Source of the DNA: a virus
Lineage: Duplodnaviria > Heunggongvirae > Uroviricota > Caudoviricetes
Strand: one strand, 5' to 3'
IMG/VR virus record: IMGVR_UViG_2657245081_000004
Length of the DNA stretch: 12,885 bases
A program made the position numbers and the translations under genes. The notes below the pieces were generated by a model. It searched no databases. It saw only the letters and a program-made list of their open reading frames with translations, and was not told where the DNA came from. This document shows, piece after piece, positions 4,300-11,088 of this stretch. Every line of letters begins with the position of its first letter. Position 1 is the stretch's first letter.

Positions 4300-4491
4300 T
4301 TAAAGACCTGCCGGGATTTCGATATTATCCTGGTGAATAACTTTATCGACCGGGTAACAGTTACCGGGAATTTTCTGTTCGGTTGCTGCAGTCATACACT
4401 CCTGCATTGTCCTGTGAACACTGACTGCAATATCAACTGGCTCTCCGGAAACAAGAAAAACTGTCAGAACAAGCACAAATGCTGAATTCAT
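4300..4491 (-). CDS. ydfD: YdfD, small lysis-inducing protein with N-terminal hydrophobic segment (63 aa)
   Basis: MNSAFVLVLTVFLVSGEP... matches remembered Qin YdfD; AAGGA about 9 nt upstream of ATG 4491; start overlaps dicB stop (ATGA). The track's longer N-terminus is an upstream extension. Confidence 0.8.
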   Translation of the reverse strand: MNSAFVLVLTVFLVSGEPVDIAVSVHRTMQECMTAATEQKIPGNCYPVDKVIHQDNIEIPAGL

Positions 4492-4676
4492 TGTGCACAT
4501 CCTTTTGGCATCAGACGTAAACGAGCCAGCATTGAAACAATGCATATTTTATTTAATAGCTCCCGTTCTTGTTTTCTCTTGTTAATGGCATCTTCAGTAA
4601 ATACTGGGTTACTGATAGTGACACCAATTTCAAAACAACCTTCAGACGTATTAACGTTTGGTAATAACGTTTTCAT
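4488..4676 (-). CDS. dicB: DicB cell-division inhibitor (62 aa)
   Basis: MKTLLPNVNTSEGCFEIGVTISNPVFTEDAINKRKQERELLNKICIVSMLARLRLMPKGCAQ matches remembered DicB; GAGGA upstream of ATG 4676; lies immediately downstream of DicF as in Qin. Confidence 0.9.
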   Translation of the reverse strand: MKTLLPNVNTSEGCFEIGVTISNPVFTEDAINKRKQERELLNKICIVSMLARLRLMPKGCAQ

Positions 4677-4845
4677 TATCGCGTCCTCAACAATGAATTT
4701 TGTGATGCAGTGCCTGGTGCCTCCAGGTGACGTTAACCAGTTAACAATTAACGCCGGATACAGAGAATCCACCCATAACACTGTTTTTGGTTTTAACTGT
4801 TCCGCGTGCGCTCAGCCGCATTCACCACATCACAAAATTCACTTT

Positions 4846-4903
4846 AAAAAGGGCGGCAGAGCAGTCACGGAGTAAAACTGATACCGCCAAACGTCACCAG
4901 AAA
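4846..4903 (-). ncRNA. dicF: DicF small RNA (ftsZ-targeting) with its intrinsic terminator
   Basis: Minus-strand sequence UUUCUGGUGACGUUUGGCGGUAUCAGUUUUACUCCGUGACUGCUCUGCCGCCCUUUUU matches remembered DicF; ends in a GGCGG/CCGCC stem plus U5. Confidence 0.85.
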
Positions 4904-8594: not shown

Positions 8595-8634
8595 GTGTTG
8601 ATTTCTGGTCATGAGGTAATTTTCAGGAGGGCTT

Positions 8635-9057
8635 GTGGCAAAAGTTTTTACACAAGAAGAGCGAGAAAAAATTAAAGGGCAGGTTGTTGAACTCGTACGC
8701 CAGAGTGGGCGTGAGACGTTACGGCAACTGGAAGTCAAGACAGGTGCGACAAGATATCTGATGAGCGTTCTCGCAAGAGAGCTGGTTGCCAGCGGCGATG
8801 TATACAACTCCGGCTACGGGTTATTCCCCTCTGAACAGGCGCGTAAGGACTGGCAAAACGCCCGCAAAAAACTCTCGAGGGCAAAGGTGAAGAAACCTGC
8901 TGTGGTTGATCCGGACCTTATCTGGTCATCACCTGACGGAGAAATACGTCGCTACGACAGTCGCCTAAACATAATCTGTCGCGAGTGCCGGAAGAGTGAA
9001 GCTATGCAGCGTGTACTGGCTTTCTATCAGGGTAATTTTCAGGAGGCGGTACTGTGA
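8635..9057 (+). CDS. Hypothetical protein (140 aa), GTG start
   Basis: AGGAGG 4 nt upstream of GTG 8635; unrecognised; flanked by a 16-bp direct repeat. Confidence 0.55.
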   Translation: MAKVFTQEEREKIKGQVVELVRQSGRETLRQLEVKTGATRYLMSVLARELVASGDVYNSGYGLFPSEQARKDWQNARKKLSRAKVKKPAVVDPDLIWSSPDGEIRRYDSRLNIICRECRKSEAMQRVLAFYQGNFQEAVL

Positions 9058-9114
9058 GTGAAATTAGCTATCAGGCTTCAATTACCGCTGGCATTCGCAT
9101 CAAAGGAGAGGAGC

Positions 9115-9471
9115 ATGGAAATAAAACCAGAGGATGAGTTAAGCAATATCGTTTTATTTCCGGTAAAAGAGGATGACCCTCGTAATCAGGTTAATTTTCT
9201 TTATGAGCCATCGGAAAGACCATATTGTCATCACGCCTCTGTCCGGGTTGACGAAAAAGAGCGTCAGGTCCGCTGTAAAATCTGCGGTGCAGTTGTGGAG
9301 CCATTTGACTGGATGCTCTCTGTGGCGAAAAGAGAAACCAGACTGGCAGATGATGTAAGGCTCTTGCGTCAGGAGGAGCGGGAAAGGCGAAAAAATATAG
9401 AAAAGCTAATTCAGATTGAGCGTAACGCGAAAGCGCGGATACGCAGGGCGACAAAATCCAGAACTGAATAA
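9115..9471 (+). CDS. Hypothetical protein (118 aa) with possible zinc-ribbon motif (CHH...CKICG) and basic C-terminal tail
   Basis: GGAGAGGAG upstream of ATG 9115; alternative GTG start at 9058 would add 19 aa. Confidence 0.55.
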   Translation: MEIKPEDELSNIVLFPVKEDDPRNQVNFLYEPSERPYCHHASVRVDEKERQVRCKICGAVVEPFDWMLSVAKRETRLADDVRLLRQEERERRKNIEKLIQIERNAKARIRRATKSRTE

Positions 9472-9564
9472 TTAAATTTAGCTCTGTTAAAAATTTAATC
9501 CTTAACCGGAGGGATTTCTGCACCCTCAGAACATCAGGAGGCCGCCCGAAAGGGCGGTAGTTAA

Positions 9565-9747
9565 ATGCGAAAGTTTAAAATAATTATTGAAACGGGAATA
9601 GCCGGTGGAGATTTCGAGGATGAATTCGAAGTGGATGATGATGCGACGCCTGATGAAATACATGACGAAGCAAAAGATATTTTCTTTAACTACTGCAATT
9701 ACTCATATCACGAAATAAAAGACGAAGAGGAAGAACAAAATGGCTGA
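9565..9747 (+). CDS. Small highly acidic protein (60 aa; about 20 Asp/Glu, 5 basic)
   Basis: Composition counted by hand; the Shine-Dalgarno AGGAG at 9536-9540 is separated from the ATG by a GAAA-tetraloop hairpin (9541-9558). Confidence 0.5.
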   Translation: MRKFKIIIETGIAGGDFEDEFEVDDDATPDEIHDEAKDIFFNYCNYSYHEIKDEEEEQNG

Positions 9748-9916
9748 TTTTGGTTCAACTAAATACAACGTCAGTTTTGAAGAATGGCATGAACTGTTAA
9801 TGGACTATGCAGAGTTACGTGGTGGCAGTGCTGCTGATGCTGAAGCATGGCGTGATGATTATGAAGCAGGAAAAACTCCGGTCGAAGCATATTGTGATGA
9901 GTGGGGCGATGAATGA
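9740..9916 (+). CDS. Small acidic protein (58 aa), translationally coupled to the preceding acidic ORF
   Basis: Hand translation MADFGSTKYNVSFEEWHELLMDYAELRGGSAADAEAWRDDYEAGKTPVEAYCDEWGDE; GAGGAAG 8 nt upstream; start overlaps the upstream stop by 8 nt. Not in the ORF track (below cutoff). Confidence 0.5.
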   Translation: MADFGSTKYNVSFEEWHELLMDYAELRGGSAADAEAWRDDYEAGKTPVEAYCDEWGDE

Positions 9917-9974
9917 GCGAGGTTAATTATCAGGAAGGGCATGAAACGGCGGGGCAAGCAAAAACAGTGGCATG

Positions 9975-10229
9975 GCGATATCGCTACGTGAAAAAAAAGG
10001 CGTTACGGACTTTCAGGGGAAGTAGTGGTCTGGTGACTGGAAATATGTACCGAAAAAAGAGGATTGTAACGACAGGCCGAACTATGAAATTCAGGCCTTA
10101 TTCACTGCCCCGCCAGTCCCGGTTACATCAGAAGAACTGGTTAAAGCTGTGCACTTTTATGAACAACTAAAACGCGAAAATCCACCAGCATCCGGAAACC
10201 TGATTACAGATTCCCAGATAAGGCAATGA
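9975..10229 (+). pseudogene. Interrupted ORF: 17 codons from ATG 9975, in-frame TAG at 10023-10025, then 67 sense codons with no start codon
   Basis: The frame reads MAISLREKKGVTDFQGK, TAG, then WSGDWKYVPKKEDCNDRPNYEIQALFTAPPVPVTSEELVKAVHFYEQLKRENPPASGNLITDSQIRQ. The track ORF 9913..10170 is in another frame and is basic and low-complexity. Confidence 0.35.
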
Positions 10230-10662: not shown

Positions 10663-10734
10663 GACTGCGGGTGCTTGAGGCTATCTGTCTCAGGCATGAA
10701 CACCAAAAGGCAGATAGAGAAAAGCCCCAGTTAA

Positions 10735-10800
10735 CATTACGCGTCCTGCAAGACGCTTAACATTAATCTGAGGCCATATCTATGCGACACATAGAGATTA
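10735..10800 (-). ncRNA. Putative Sok-like antisense RNA region (approximate bounds)
   Basis: Minus-strand promoter-like TTGACC (complement of 10821-10826), 16-nt spacer, GCTAAT, reading across the mok-like start; position matches hok/sok architecture. Ends not determinable. Confidence 0.35.
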
Positions 10801-10841
10801 GCCTCTTACGGACCGAAAGGTCAAGGAGAAGCAGGCTATGA
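10782..10841 (+). CDS. Short leader ORF (19 aa) ending in ATGA overlap with the hok start; mok-like coupling frame
   Basis: ATG 10782 with GAGG 8 nt upstream; stop TGA overlaps the hok ATG. Confidence 0.35.
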   Translation: MRHIEISLLRTERSRRSRL

Positions 10842-10993: not shown

Positions 10994-11062
10994 GAGACCT
11001 GGCGGGGGAGAAATCCCTCGCCACCTCTGATGTGTCAGGCATCCTCAACGCACCCGCACGTA

Positions 11063-11088
11063 ACCCGCTTCGGCGGGTTTTGTTTTTT
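11063..11088 (+). terminator. Rho-independent terminator downstream of hok
   Basis: ACCCGC-TTCG-GCGGGT hairpin followed by TTTTGTTTTTT. A 9-bp GAAA-tetraloop hairpin lies upstream at 11002-11023. Confidence 0.7.

What the first reader, a model, noticed from the sequence alone, without database searches (positions are those of the whole stretch)
9536..9567. Shine-Dalgarno separated from the start codon by a GAAA-tetraloop hairpin
AGGAG at 9536-9540 lies 24 nt from the ATG at 9565, too far for direct use. The intervening 18 nt form a stem (GCCGCCC / GGGCGGT) with a GAAA loop. If the hairpin folds, the Shine-Dalgarno is brought to about 6 nt from the ATG, as in phage T4 gene 38; if it melts, initiation is lost. 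This could make translation of the acidic protein depend on RNA structure.
Basis: partly seen in the sequence, partly recalled or inferred. Interest (0 to 1): 0.45.

Follow-up and report, generated by a model that had tools for sequence, protein, structure and literature searches.

The report
Hairpin-split ribosome site in prophage cassette
A strong ribosome-binding sequence is separated from its start codon by a very stable RNA hairpin, and this unit belongs to a roughly 100-base junction that lambda-like prophages in about half of complete E. coli genomes reuse in front of several unrelated small genes; it probably works like the split ribosome sites of phage T4 genes 38 and 25, but this has not been tested.

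Summary
AGGAG lies at 9536-9540. A stem GCCGCCC/GGGCGGT with a GAAA loop lies at 9541-9558 (-15.5 kcal/mol). AGUUAA follows, then the ATG at 9565 of a 60-aa DUF7167 gene. The linear spacing of 24 nt becomes 6 nt if the hairpin is looped out.

The window is a Rac/Qin-like lambdoid prophage. The motif is the 3' end of a conserved intergenic cassette (9464-9564), found at 4400 places in 2622 of 5426 complete E. coli genomes. The cassette joins at least 7 kinds of upstream gene to 5 kinds of downstream gene in nearly free combination.

In the four downstream families that lack a Shine-Dalgarno (SD) sequence of their own, the start codon lies 5-8 nt after the hairpin. A short form keeps only SD, hairpin and spacer. 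More distant DUF7167 genes (Klebsiella pneumoniae records and unidentified samples) have no hairpin and an ordinary SD 5-8 nt before the start.

I therefore read it as a constitutive split ribosome-binding site of the T4 gene 38/25 type, carried on a portable gene junction (confidence about 0.55).

- The stems show no significant covariation.
- About 10% of copies have weakened stems.
- One downstream family has its own SD after the hairpin.
- The hairpin is too stable to suggest a melting switch.

It is a new member of a known kind and of moderate interest.

The parts
9058..9471 (+). Upstream gene (137 aa, weak zinc-ribbon match). Its last two codons and its stop codon lie inside the conserved cassette.
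   Evidence: ORF list. The Pfam Zn_Ribbon_TF match is below the curated cut-off. Several unrelated upstream genes end in the same CTGAATAA.
9464..9481 (+). 5' end of the cassette, CTGAATAATTAAATTTAG. It has stop codons in all three frames (TGA 9465, TAA 9469, TAA 9473) and a weak A/U-rich inverted repeat, CUGAAU/AUUUAG.
   Evidence: Sequence. The same string follows at least 5 unrelated upstream coding sequences.
9499..9502 (+). UCCU, predicted to pair with AGGA 9536-9539 of the Shine-Dalgarno sequence. This 4-bp helix encloses hairpin 1 and could partly mask the Shine-Dalgarno sequence. It is absent from the short form.
   Evidence: Minimum-energy folds and the RNAalifold consensus. Both sides are invariant, so there is no covariation test.
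9509..9527 (+). Hairpin 1: GAGGG, a 9-nt loop AUUUCUGCA, then CCCUC. One arm resembles a Shine-Dalgarno sequence and the other resembles its complement on 16S rRNA.
   Evidence: Folds. 98.4% of cells are paired across 64 unique sequences, but variation is by G-U wobble or mismatch only. It is absent from the short form.
9536..9541 (+). Shine-Dalgarno sequence AGGAGG. Predicted duplex with the 16S rRNA 3' end is -9.7 kcal/mol.
   Evidence: G39, G40 and A41 are invariant, and A38 and G42 are at least 90% conserved, in alignment A1.
9541..9558 (+). Hairpin 2: GCCGCCC, loop GAAA, GGGCGGU. Seven pairs, the outermost G-U.
   Evidence: -15.5 kcal/mol with z = -3.49. Pair probabilities are about 1. 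The free energy is -8 kcal/mol or better in 110 of 122 copies sampled without reference to this hairpin. The scan for terminators did not call it one.
9559..9564 (+). A/U-rich spacer AGUUAA between the hairpin foot and the start codon. It contains no Shine-Dalgarno-like match, and its last three bases are an in-frame TAA.
9565..9747 (+). DUF7167 gene: 60 aa, very acidic, function unknown.
   Evidence: Pfam PF23768, 55.1 bits, profile positions 1-60 on residues 2-53. RefSeq names it 'DUF7167 family protein'.

Best explanation
Bases 9536-9567 form a split (noncontiguous) translation initiation region. The 30S subunit pairs with AGGAGG (9536-9541). The very stable GAAA-loop hairpin (9541-9558) stays folded outside the mRNA track. 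The AUG at 9565, 6 nt past the hairpin foot, then sits at a normal effective distance from the Shine-Dalgarno (SD) helix. This is a fixed architecture, not a switch.

The unit is the 3' end of a roughly 100-nt portable intercistronic cassette of Escherichia/Shigella lambdoid prophages. In order, the cassette holds stop codons in all three frames, an A/U-rich stretch, hairpin 1, the SD, hairpin 2 and the spacer. Recombination within it joins many different upstream genes to several different downstream genes, and it supplies their translation signals.

Shown here: the sequence anatomy, the predicted stability, the recurrence and assortment of the cassette, the constant position of start codons, and the lack of any other SD. 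Inferred: that ribosomes use the upstream SD across the folded hairpin.
For: 1. Anatomy and stability are established.

2. The cassette is widespread. It occurs at 4400 places in 2622 of 5426 complete E. coli genomes. One exact-match scan of species-representative genomes for the SD plus hairpin 2 found it only in Shigella flexneri, plus one 3-kb contig labelled as a Collinsella metagenome-assembled genome that I take to be contamination.

3. Start codons keep a constant position. Among 190 copies they lie 6 nt after the hairpin for DUF7167, 5 nt for DUF4014, 7-8 nt for the MTELT proteins that RefSeq calls Ea22-like (one variant uses GTG) and 8 nt for the MQ[DE]IK proteins. None of these spacers has an SD-like match.

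4. A short form exists. In phage ArgO145 and about 35 viral contigs, a different upstream gene ends TAA-TGTC and is followed directly by AGGAGG, hairpin 2, spacer and ATG. Hairpin 1 and the A/U-rich part are missing, and four different downstream genes follow. The smallest unit that travels is therefore exactly SD, hairpin and spacer.

5. Six DUF7167 genes outside the cassette were read in six loci (five distinct upstream sequences), from Klebsiella pneumoniae records and unidentified samples. All have an ordinary SD (GGAG, GAGGGGG, GGAGG, GAGAGGG or GAAGGG) 5-8 nt before the start and no hairpin. Removing the hairpin from the cassette gives the same 5-6 nt spacing.

6. The neighbouring gene at 9058 has the initiation region TCAGGAGGCGGTA. 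The cassette reads TCAGGAGGC[CGCCCGAAAGGG]CGGTA, as if the hairpin were an insertion into an ordinary initiation region.

7. There is precedent. T4 gene 38 goes from 22 to 5 nt and gene 25 from 27 to 11 nt, with mutational and probing support (PMC3014915; PMC7297116).

8. Upstream and downstream gene families assort almost freely across the cassette.
Against: - The stems show no significant covariation. 96.6% of cells are paired, but this equals the shuffle mean (250 of 500 shuffles reach it), and only one double change is seen. Support for the structure is thermodynamic only.
- About 10% of copies (12 of 122) have weakened hairpins of -4 to -8 kcal/mol, for example GCCACCC/GGGCGGT with an A-C mismatch.
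- The family with a phage antiterminator Q domain has its own GGAG between the hairpin and the ATG. The cassette's SD and hairpin are therefore not always the operative site.
- A few copies are followed by no nearby start codon.
- The 3' arm holds a weak SD-like AGGGCGG (-7.8 kcal/mol duplex) that the hairpin hides.
- In long contexts the SD is often predicted to be partly paired. Partners include UCCU 9499-9502 and, in the 252-nt fold, a stretch inside the coding region.
- There is no expression, toeprint or probing data.
Confidence: 0.55

Rival explanations
1. The hairpin is mainly an intercistronic RNA-stability or processing element. It would act as a barrier to 3' exonucleases for the upstream message, or the two hairpins would cap fragments made by cleavage in the A/U-rich stretch. 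Its place inside the initiation region would be tolerated or mildly inhibitory, not helpful.
For: The hairpin is G+C-rich and stable and lies between genes, 11 nt (short form) or 70 nt (long form) after the upstream stop codon. The long form has an A/U-rich single-stranded stretch flanked by hairpins. The window as a whole is rich in strong hairpins. The Q-domain family has its own Shine-Dalgarno (SD) sequence after the hairpin.
Against: The hairpin's distance to the downstream start codon is fixed at 5-8 nt, while its distance to the upstream stop codon varies from 11 to 70 nt. A strong SD always abuts its 5' foot, and most downstream genes have no other SD. This role is not exclusive of the split-site reading.
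Confidence: 0.2
2. The conserved sequence matters only at the DNA level. It would be a shared stretch of homology (a module linker) at which lambdoid prophages exchange accessory genes. The hairpin and its position relative to the SD would have no function of their own.
For: Upstream and downstream families assort almost freely across the cassette. Conservation within it (mean column identity 95%) is about the same as that of homologous flanking genes (92-96%). There is no covariation.
Against: Homology runs right up to the start codon and includes a consensus SD, so it must at least supply translation signals. Wobble-preserving C-to-U changes outnumber pair-breaking changes in the stem, a mild excess only. 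No hairpin-less copy appeared among 122 copies sampled by hairpin 1 alone. This reading explains the spread of the cassette, not how the downstream genes are translated.
Confidence: 0.15
3. The hairpin is a transcription signal. It would be an intrinsic terminator or pause at a tR2-like position in the rightward operon, or a boxB-like binding site for an N-type antiterminator or another RNA-binding protein.
For: It lies after the replication genes and before the nin-like region, where lambda has tR2 (gene order; the lambda comparison is from my own knowledge). A GAAA loop on a G-C stem resembles lambda boxB, GCCCUGAAAAAGGGC (own knowledge).
Against: No run of U follows the stem in any variant, and the scan called no terminator here. 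The loop is 4 nt, not 5, and varies (GGCA, UAAA, AAAA, GUCA). The boxA-like GCUCU upstream is not conserved; GCACU, GUGUU and GUUCU also occur. The cassette also occurs in leftward operons of Stx phages. There is no Rfam match at E-values up to 1.
Confidence: 0.05

Closest known systems
Split (noncontiguous) translation initiation regions of phage T4 genes 38 and 25
   Same: A good Shine-Dalgarno sequence lies too far from the start codon in the linear sequence (22 and 27 nt in T4, 24 nt here). A stable stem-loop fills the gap, so the effective spacing becomes 5 and 11 nt in T4 and 6 nt here (PMC3014915; PMC7297116). The arrangement is conserved among close relatives and absent from distant homologues, as reported for gene 25 in the T-even phages (compared here).
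   Different: The T4 cases belong to one gene each and have been tested by mutation, reporter fusions and DMS probing. This one is untested. It sits on a portable cassette that serves at least four unrelated gene families in temperate lambdoid prophages. The sequences are not similar.
Start-associated sequences of Cluster K mycobacteriophages, and the linker sequences proposed for modular phage evolution
   Same: Both are short conserved sequences that recur immediately upstream of the start codons of different genes, or at the boundaries of exchangeable modules. They are thought to serve translation or recombination. This comparison rests on my own knowledge and was not checked in the literature here.
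   Different: The sequences, hosts and copy numbers differ. This cassette occurs once or twice per prophage, not many times per genome. [quoted passage not shown]
Lambda nut-site boxB hairpin
   Same: A short G-C stem capped by a GAAA-type loop on an early phage transcript.
   Different: This loop is a tetraloop and it varies. There is no conserved boxA, and the hairpin is not near a promoter. I did not look for an N-type antiterminator gene in the window. See the membership rows.

Membership tests
Split translation initiation region (T4 gene 38/25 type) | A Shine-Dalgarno (SD) sequence complementary to the 16S rRNA 3' end lies beyond the usable linear distance from the start codon | tested here: met
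   AGGAGG has a -9.7 kcal/mol duplex with the 16S 3' end, and 24 nt lie between AGGAG and the ATG. Other genes in the operon have 3-10 nt.
Split translation initiation region (T4 gene 38/25 type) | The intervening bases form a stable stem-loop whose two feet bring the SD and the start codon to about 5-11 nt | tested here: met
   The 18-nt hairpin folds at -15.5 kcal/mol with pair probability about 1, leaving an effective spacing of 6 nt. This is prediction only.
Split translation initiation region (T4 gene 38/25 type) | No alternative SD at ordinary spacing | tested here: met
   The spacers of the DUF7167, DUF4014, MTELT and MQ[DE]IK families have no SD-like match. The only other candidate is a weak AGGGCGG buried in the stem. 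The exception is the Q-domain family, which has its own GGAG.
Split translation initiation region (T4 gene 38/25 type) | The arrangement is conserved among relatives, with base-pair covariation | tested here: inconclusive
   The arrangement is conserved in most of about 190 copies. Covariation does not exceed the shuffles: 250 of 500 reach the observed value and only one double change is seen.
Split translation initiation region (T4 gene 38/25 type) | Stem-disrupting mutations lower translation, compensatory mutations restore it, and probing shows the stem in vivo or in vitro | not testable with these tools
   This needs reporter fusions, toeprinting, and DMS or SHAPE probing.
Intrinsic (Rho-independent) terminator | A G+C-rich hairpin followed directly by a run of U | tested here: not met
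   The tail is UAGUUAAAUG here and is equally U-poor in all variants. The terminator scan did not call it.
Lambda-type nut site (boxA plus boxB) | A conserved boxA upstream, and a boxB hairpin with a 5-nt GNRA-like loop | tested here: not met
   The GCUCU at 9481-9485 is replaced by GCACU, GUGUU or GUUCU in other copies. The loop is 4 nt and varies: GGCA, UAAA, AAAA, GUCA.
Any curated RNA family (Rfam 15) | A match to a covariance model | tested here: not met
   No match over 9464-9570 at E-values up to 1. The only matches above their curated thresholds in the window are DicF and sok; five weaker matches all lie elsewhere.

The most novel reading that the evidence does not exclude
The roughly 100-nt cassette would be a self-contained universal gene adaptor for lambdoid prophages. 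Its stop codons in all three frames would end whatever gene is recombined in upstream. Its two hairpins would shield the Shine-Dalgarno sequence from the surrounding sequence. The hairpin-split ribosome site would start whatever gene is recombined in downstream. The same sequence would then serve both as the recombination linker long postulated by the modular theory of phage evolution and as a context-independent expression signal. The upstream UCCU, which can pair with the Shine-Dalgarno sequence, might tune output in the long form relative to the short form.
Probability: 0.25. Interest if true: 0.6.

Novelty: new member of a known kind. Interest (0 to 1): 0.42.

Why it matters
If the split site works as proposed, it would extend a mechanism known from two T4 genes to temperate lambdoid prophages. 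It would do so in a form that is reused in front of several unrelated genes and is present in about half of complete E. coli genomes, including Stx-converting phages.

It gives a concrete, testable example of a sequence at which accessory genes are shuffled while keeping their expression signals.

It also has a practical consequence. Gene finders that expect a Shine-Dalgarno sequence at ordinary spacing mis-call these starts. DUF7167 is deposited as 84-93 aa proteins, at least three of them read through the cassette.

If it does not work this way, the site is simply a conserved hairpin at a gene junction.

Tried and rejected
- **Covariation.** I aligned 64 unique cassette sequences and counted pairs for both hairpins. 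The result does not differ from shuffles. RNAalifold gives a covariation term of about zero.
- **Known RNA families.** Rfam has no match on the cassette. A full-text search for the hairpin and hairpin 1 sequences found no paper.
- **Terminator.** No run of U follows the stem, and the scan called none.
- **nut site.** The boxA-like GCUCU is not conserved, and the loop varies.
- **DicF pairing.** DicF (4851-4902, minus strand) shares GCCGCCC and GGCGGUA with the hairpin arms. Both lie in stable intramolecular stems and only about 5 bp could form between the molecules, so I treat this as coincidence between G+C-rich stems.
- **GcvB site.** AACAUCA upstream of the Shine-Dalgarno sequence is complementary to part of the GcvB seed (the seed sequence is from memory). 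It is not conserved; AAUCAUCA, AACAGCA and AAUAUCA also occur.
- **Long-range 12-bp helix 9554-9565 with 9685-9696.** It is not in the minimum-energy fold, and spacer variants are not compensated.
- **Chance match.** An exact match in metagenome contig L183 lies in coding sequence of an unrelated phage.
- **E. coli K-12.** The Rac prophage of MG1655 lacks the cassette, so K-12 datasets for that prophage cannot help. Qin and DLP12 were not checked.
- **Wasted or uninformative scans.** One viral-contig scan failed because I miscounted the gap length. A relatives search with the DUF7167 protein returned only identical copies.

Full report
**1. The observation**

The sequence is as described.
- AGGAG lies at 9536-9540, and G9541 extends it to AGGAGG.
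- The stem is GCCGCCC (9541-9547) paired with GGGCGGT (9552-9558), with loop GAAA (9548-9551).
- The spacer AGTTAA lies at 9559-9564.
- The ATG at 9565 opens a 60-codon ORF that ends at 9747.

Twenty-four bases separate AGGAG from the ATG, and six remain if the 18-nt hairpin is set aside.

The hairpin folds at -15.5 kcal/mol, with z = -3.49 and none of 200 shuffles as stable. It is present in every minimum-energy fold of larger contexts.

The start codon is right. The Pfam DUF7167 profile aligns from its first position to residue 2, and an in-frame TAA precedes the ATG.

The spacer has no match to the Shine-Dalgarno (SD) consensus. Neighbouring + strand genes have their best SD match 3-10 nt from the start, against 22 nt for this gene by the same measure, which counts to the end of the matched stretch.

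Under loose rules such a pattern arises about 0.5 times per random window. Its significance therefore has to come from elsewhere.

**2. Where it is**

The window is 99.9% identical over the 1.1 kb compared (9058-10170) to Escherichia phage vB_EcoS-640R1. It is a Rac/Qin-like lambdoid prophage. The leftward genes are int, xis, recE, dicB, DicF and cI. The rightward genes are dicC, cII, O, a DUF977 gene, a 137-aa gene, the site under study, DUF7167, two small genes, hok/sok, ydfU, rusA and Q. The site therefore lies inside the rightward early operon, after the replication genes.

**3. What it belongs to**

BLAST hits that cover only 9492-9559, in phages with other genes on both sides, gave the first hint (hits H18 and H19).

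The whole intergenic region 9472-9570 occurs at 4400 places in 2622 of 5426 complete E. coli genomes, with up to 7 places per genome. One exact-match scan of species-representative genomes found the SD plus hairpin 2 only in Shigella flexneri, plus one 3-kb contig labelled as a Collinsella metagenome-assembled genome, which I take to be contamination.

Three scans of viral contigs gave about 200 copies. They define a cassette, 9464-9564 in this window:
- CTGAATAATTAAATTTAG, which has stop codons in all three frames and includes the last codons of the upstream gene;
- an A/U-rich stretch;
- TCCTTAACC;
- hairpin 1 (GAGGG, nine bases, CCCTC);
- a variable linker;
- AGGAGG;
- hairpin 2;
- an A/U-rich spacer that runs up to the start codon.

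At least seven kinds of upstream gene are joined through it to five kinds of downstream gene. The downstream kinds are DUF7167, DUF4014, the MTELT proteins that RefSeq calls Ea22-like, the MQ[DE]IK proteins, and proteins with a phage antiterminator Q domain. They occur in nearly all combinations. The cassette also occurs in the leftward operon of Stx phages.

**4. Evidence that the SD and hairpin serve translation of the downstream gene**

(a) The start codon lies at a fixed short distance from the 3' foot of the hairpin: 6 nt for DUF7167, 5 nt for DUF4014, 7-8 nt for MTELT (one variant uses GTG) and 8 nt for MQ[DE]IK. None of these spacers has an SD-like match. The distance to the upstream stop codon, in contrast, is 70 nt in the long form and 11 nt in the short form.

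(b) In phage ArgO145 and about 35 contigs, a different upstream gene ends TAA-TGTC and is followed at once by AGGAGG, hairpin 2, spacer and ATG. Hairpin 1 and the A/U-rich part are missing, and four different genes follow.

(c) Six DUF7167 genes that lie outside the cassette were read in six loci (five distinct upstream sequences), from Klebsiella pneumoniae records and unidentified samples. All have an ordinary SD 5-8 nt before the start and no hairpin. The family normally relies on an SD at the spacing the cassette would give if the hairpin were looped out.

(d) The gene at 9058 has TCAGGAGGCGGTA before its start. The cassette reads the same with CGCCCGAAAGGG inserted after TCAGGAGGC. This suggests the hairpin arose by insertion into an ordinary initiation region.

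(e) Hairpin 2 is predicted to form with probability about 1 in 28 of 31 contexts. Its free energy is -8 kcal/mol or better in 110 of 122 copies sampled through hairpin 1 alone.

(f) The mechanism has experimental precedent in T4 genes 38 and 25.

**5. Evidence that limits the claim**

- Covariation is absent. 96.6% of cells are paired, which equals the shuffle mean, and a single double change is seen (G-C to A-U in GCCACCC/GGGTGGT). Both single-step intermediates also exist.
- Twelve of 122 copies have weakened stems.
- The loop is not fixed; GGCA, UAAA, AAAA and GUCA also occur. The GAAA tetraloop as such is therefore not required.
- The Q-domain family has its own GGAG after the hairpin. A few copies have no start codon nearby.
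- In the long form, UCCU (9499-9502) is predicted to pair with AGGA of the SD. Longer folds pair the SD with coding sequence. These pairings are weak and untested.

**6. Rival readings**

- An intrinsic terminator is excluded by the lack of a run of U in any variant.
- A nut-like site is unlikely: there is no conserved boxA, and the loop is 4 nt and variable.
- A role as an RNA-stability or processing element, and a role as mere recombination homology, remain possible. Neither excludes the split-site reading. Neither explains how most downstream genes would be translated without another SD.

**7. Comparison and novelty**

The site works like the split initiation regions of T4 genes 38 and 25, and it meets the sequence-level criteria of that class. 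The experimental criteria cannot be tested here.

It differs in being part of a portable junction used by several gene families in temperate phages. I found no description of it by sequence or by topic in the library searched.

I rate it a new member of a known kind. Confidence in the split-site reading is about 0.55. Interest is moderate.

Noticed in passing
window 4851-4902 (-) and 4644-4853 (-): The small RNA DicF is present (Rfam 76.7 bits against a threshold of 48). An STnc100-like match below its threshold lies next to it, within the dicB operon of this prophage. DicF shares GCCGCCC and GGCGGUA with the arms of hairpin 2, which I judge to be coincidence.
   Followed up: partly
window 10669-10840 (+) and 11002-11083 (+): There is a sok antitoxin RNA of a hok/sok system (106.7 bits against a threshold of 59). 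An isrK-like match below its threshold (27.1 against 50) coincides with a strong 10-bp hairpin at 11000-11023.
   Followed up: no
window 8615-8630 and 9031-9046: An exact 16-nt direct repeat, GGTAATTTTCAGGAGG, forms the Shine-Dalgarno regions of two successive genes (starts at 8635 and 9058). The second continues CGGTA, as the cassette does once the hairpin core is removed.
   Followed up: partly
window 9464-9481: The 5' end of the cassette has stop codons in all three frames within 11 nt (TGA 9465, TAA 9469, TAA 9473). It also has a weak A/U-rich inverted repeat, CTGAAT/ATTTAG, which is a perfect CTGAAT/ATTCAG in some copies. Several unrelated upstream genes share the final codons GAA TAA.
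   Followed up: partly
window 9499-9527: The nearly invariant TCCTTAACC and hairpin 1 contain two motifs resembling the 3' end of 16S rRNA (UCCUUA, CCCUC) and one Shine-Dalgarno-like motif (GGAGGG). UCCU is predicted to pair with the real Shine-Dalgarno sequence. This might tune translation in the long form.
   Followed up: partly
proteins P0002, P0003, P0004, P0006, P0009 (homologues of window 9565-9747): Public gene calls extend DUF7167 to 84-93 aa; four of the five read (P0002, P0003, P0006, P0009) run through the cassette (…SLTGGISAPSEHQEAARKGGSEM…). This happens in variants whose spacer is AGTGAA and so lacks the in-frame stop. They are probably start-site mis-calls caused by the unusual ribosome site. 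In P0003 (139 member sequences) the normal ATG codon reads as arginine.
   Followed up: partly
window 9554-9565 and 9685-9696: There is a 12-bp complementarity (one G-U pair) between the hairpin's 3' arm plus spacer and the codons for FNYC inside the gene. It is not in the predicted minimum-energy fold, and spacer variants are not compensated.
   Followed up: yes
L097 and L104 (viral contigs), about 60 nt after the cassette: In these copies the cassette is followed by a 228-aa gene (MTPINIF…CCAPCSGE…) that I did not identify. A cysteine motif reminded me of QueH-type epoxyqueuosine reductases, but no search was run. It shows that cargo other than the usual small genes can sit behind the junction.
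   Followed up: no
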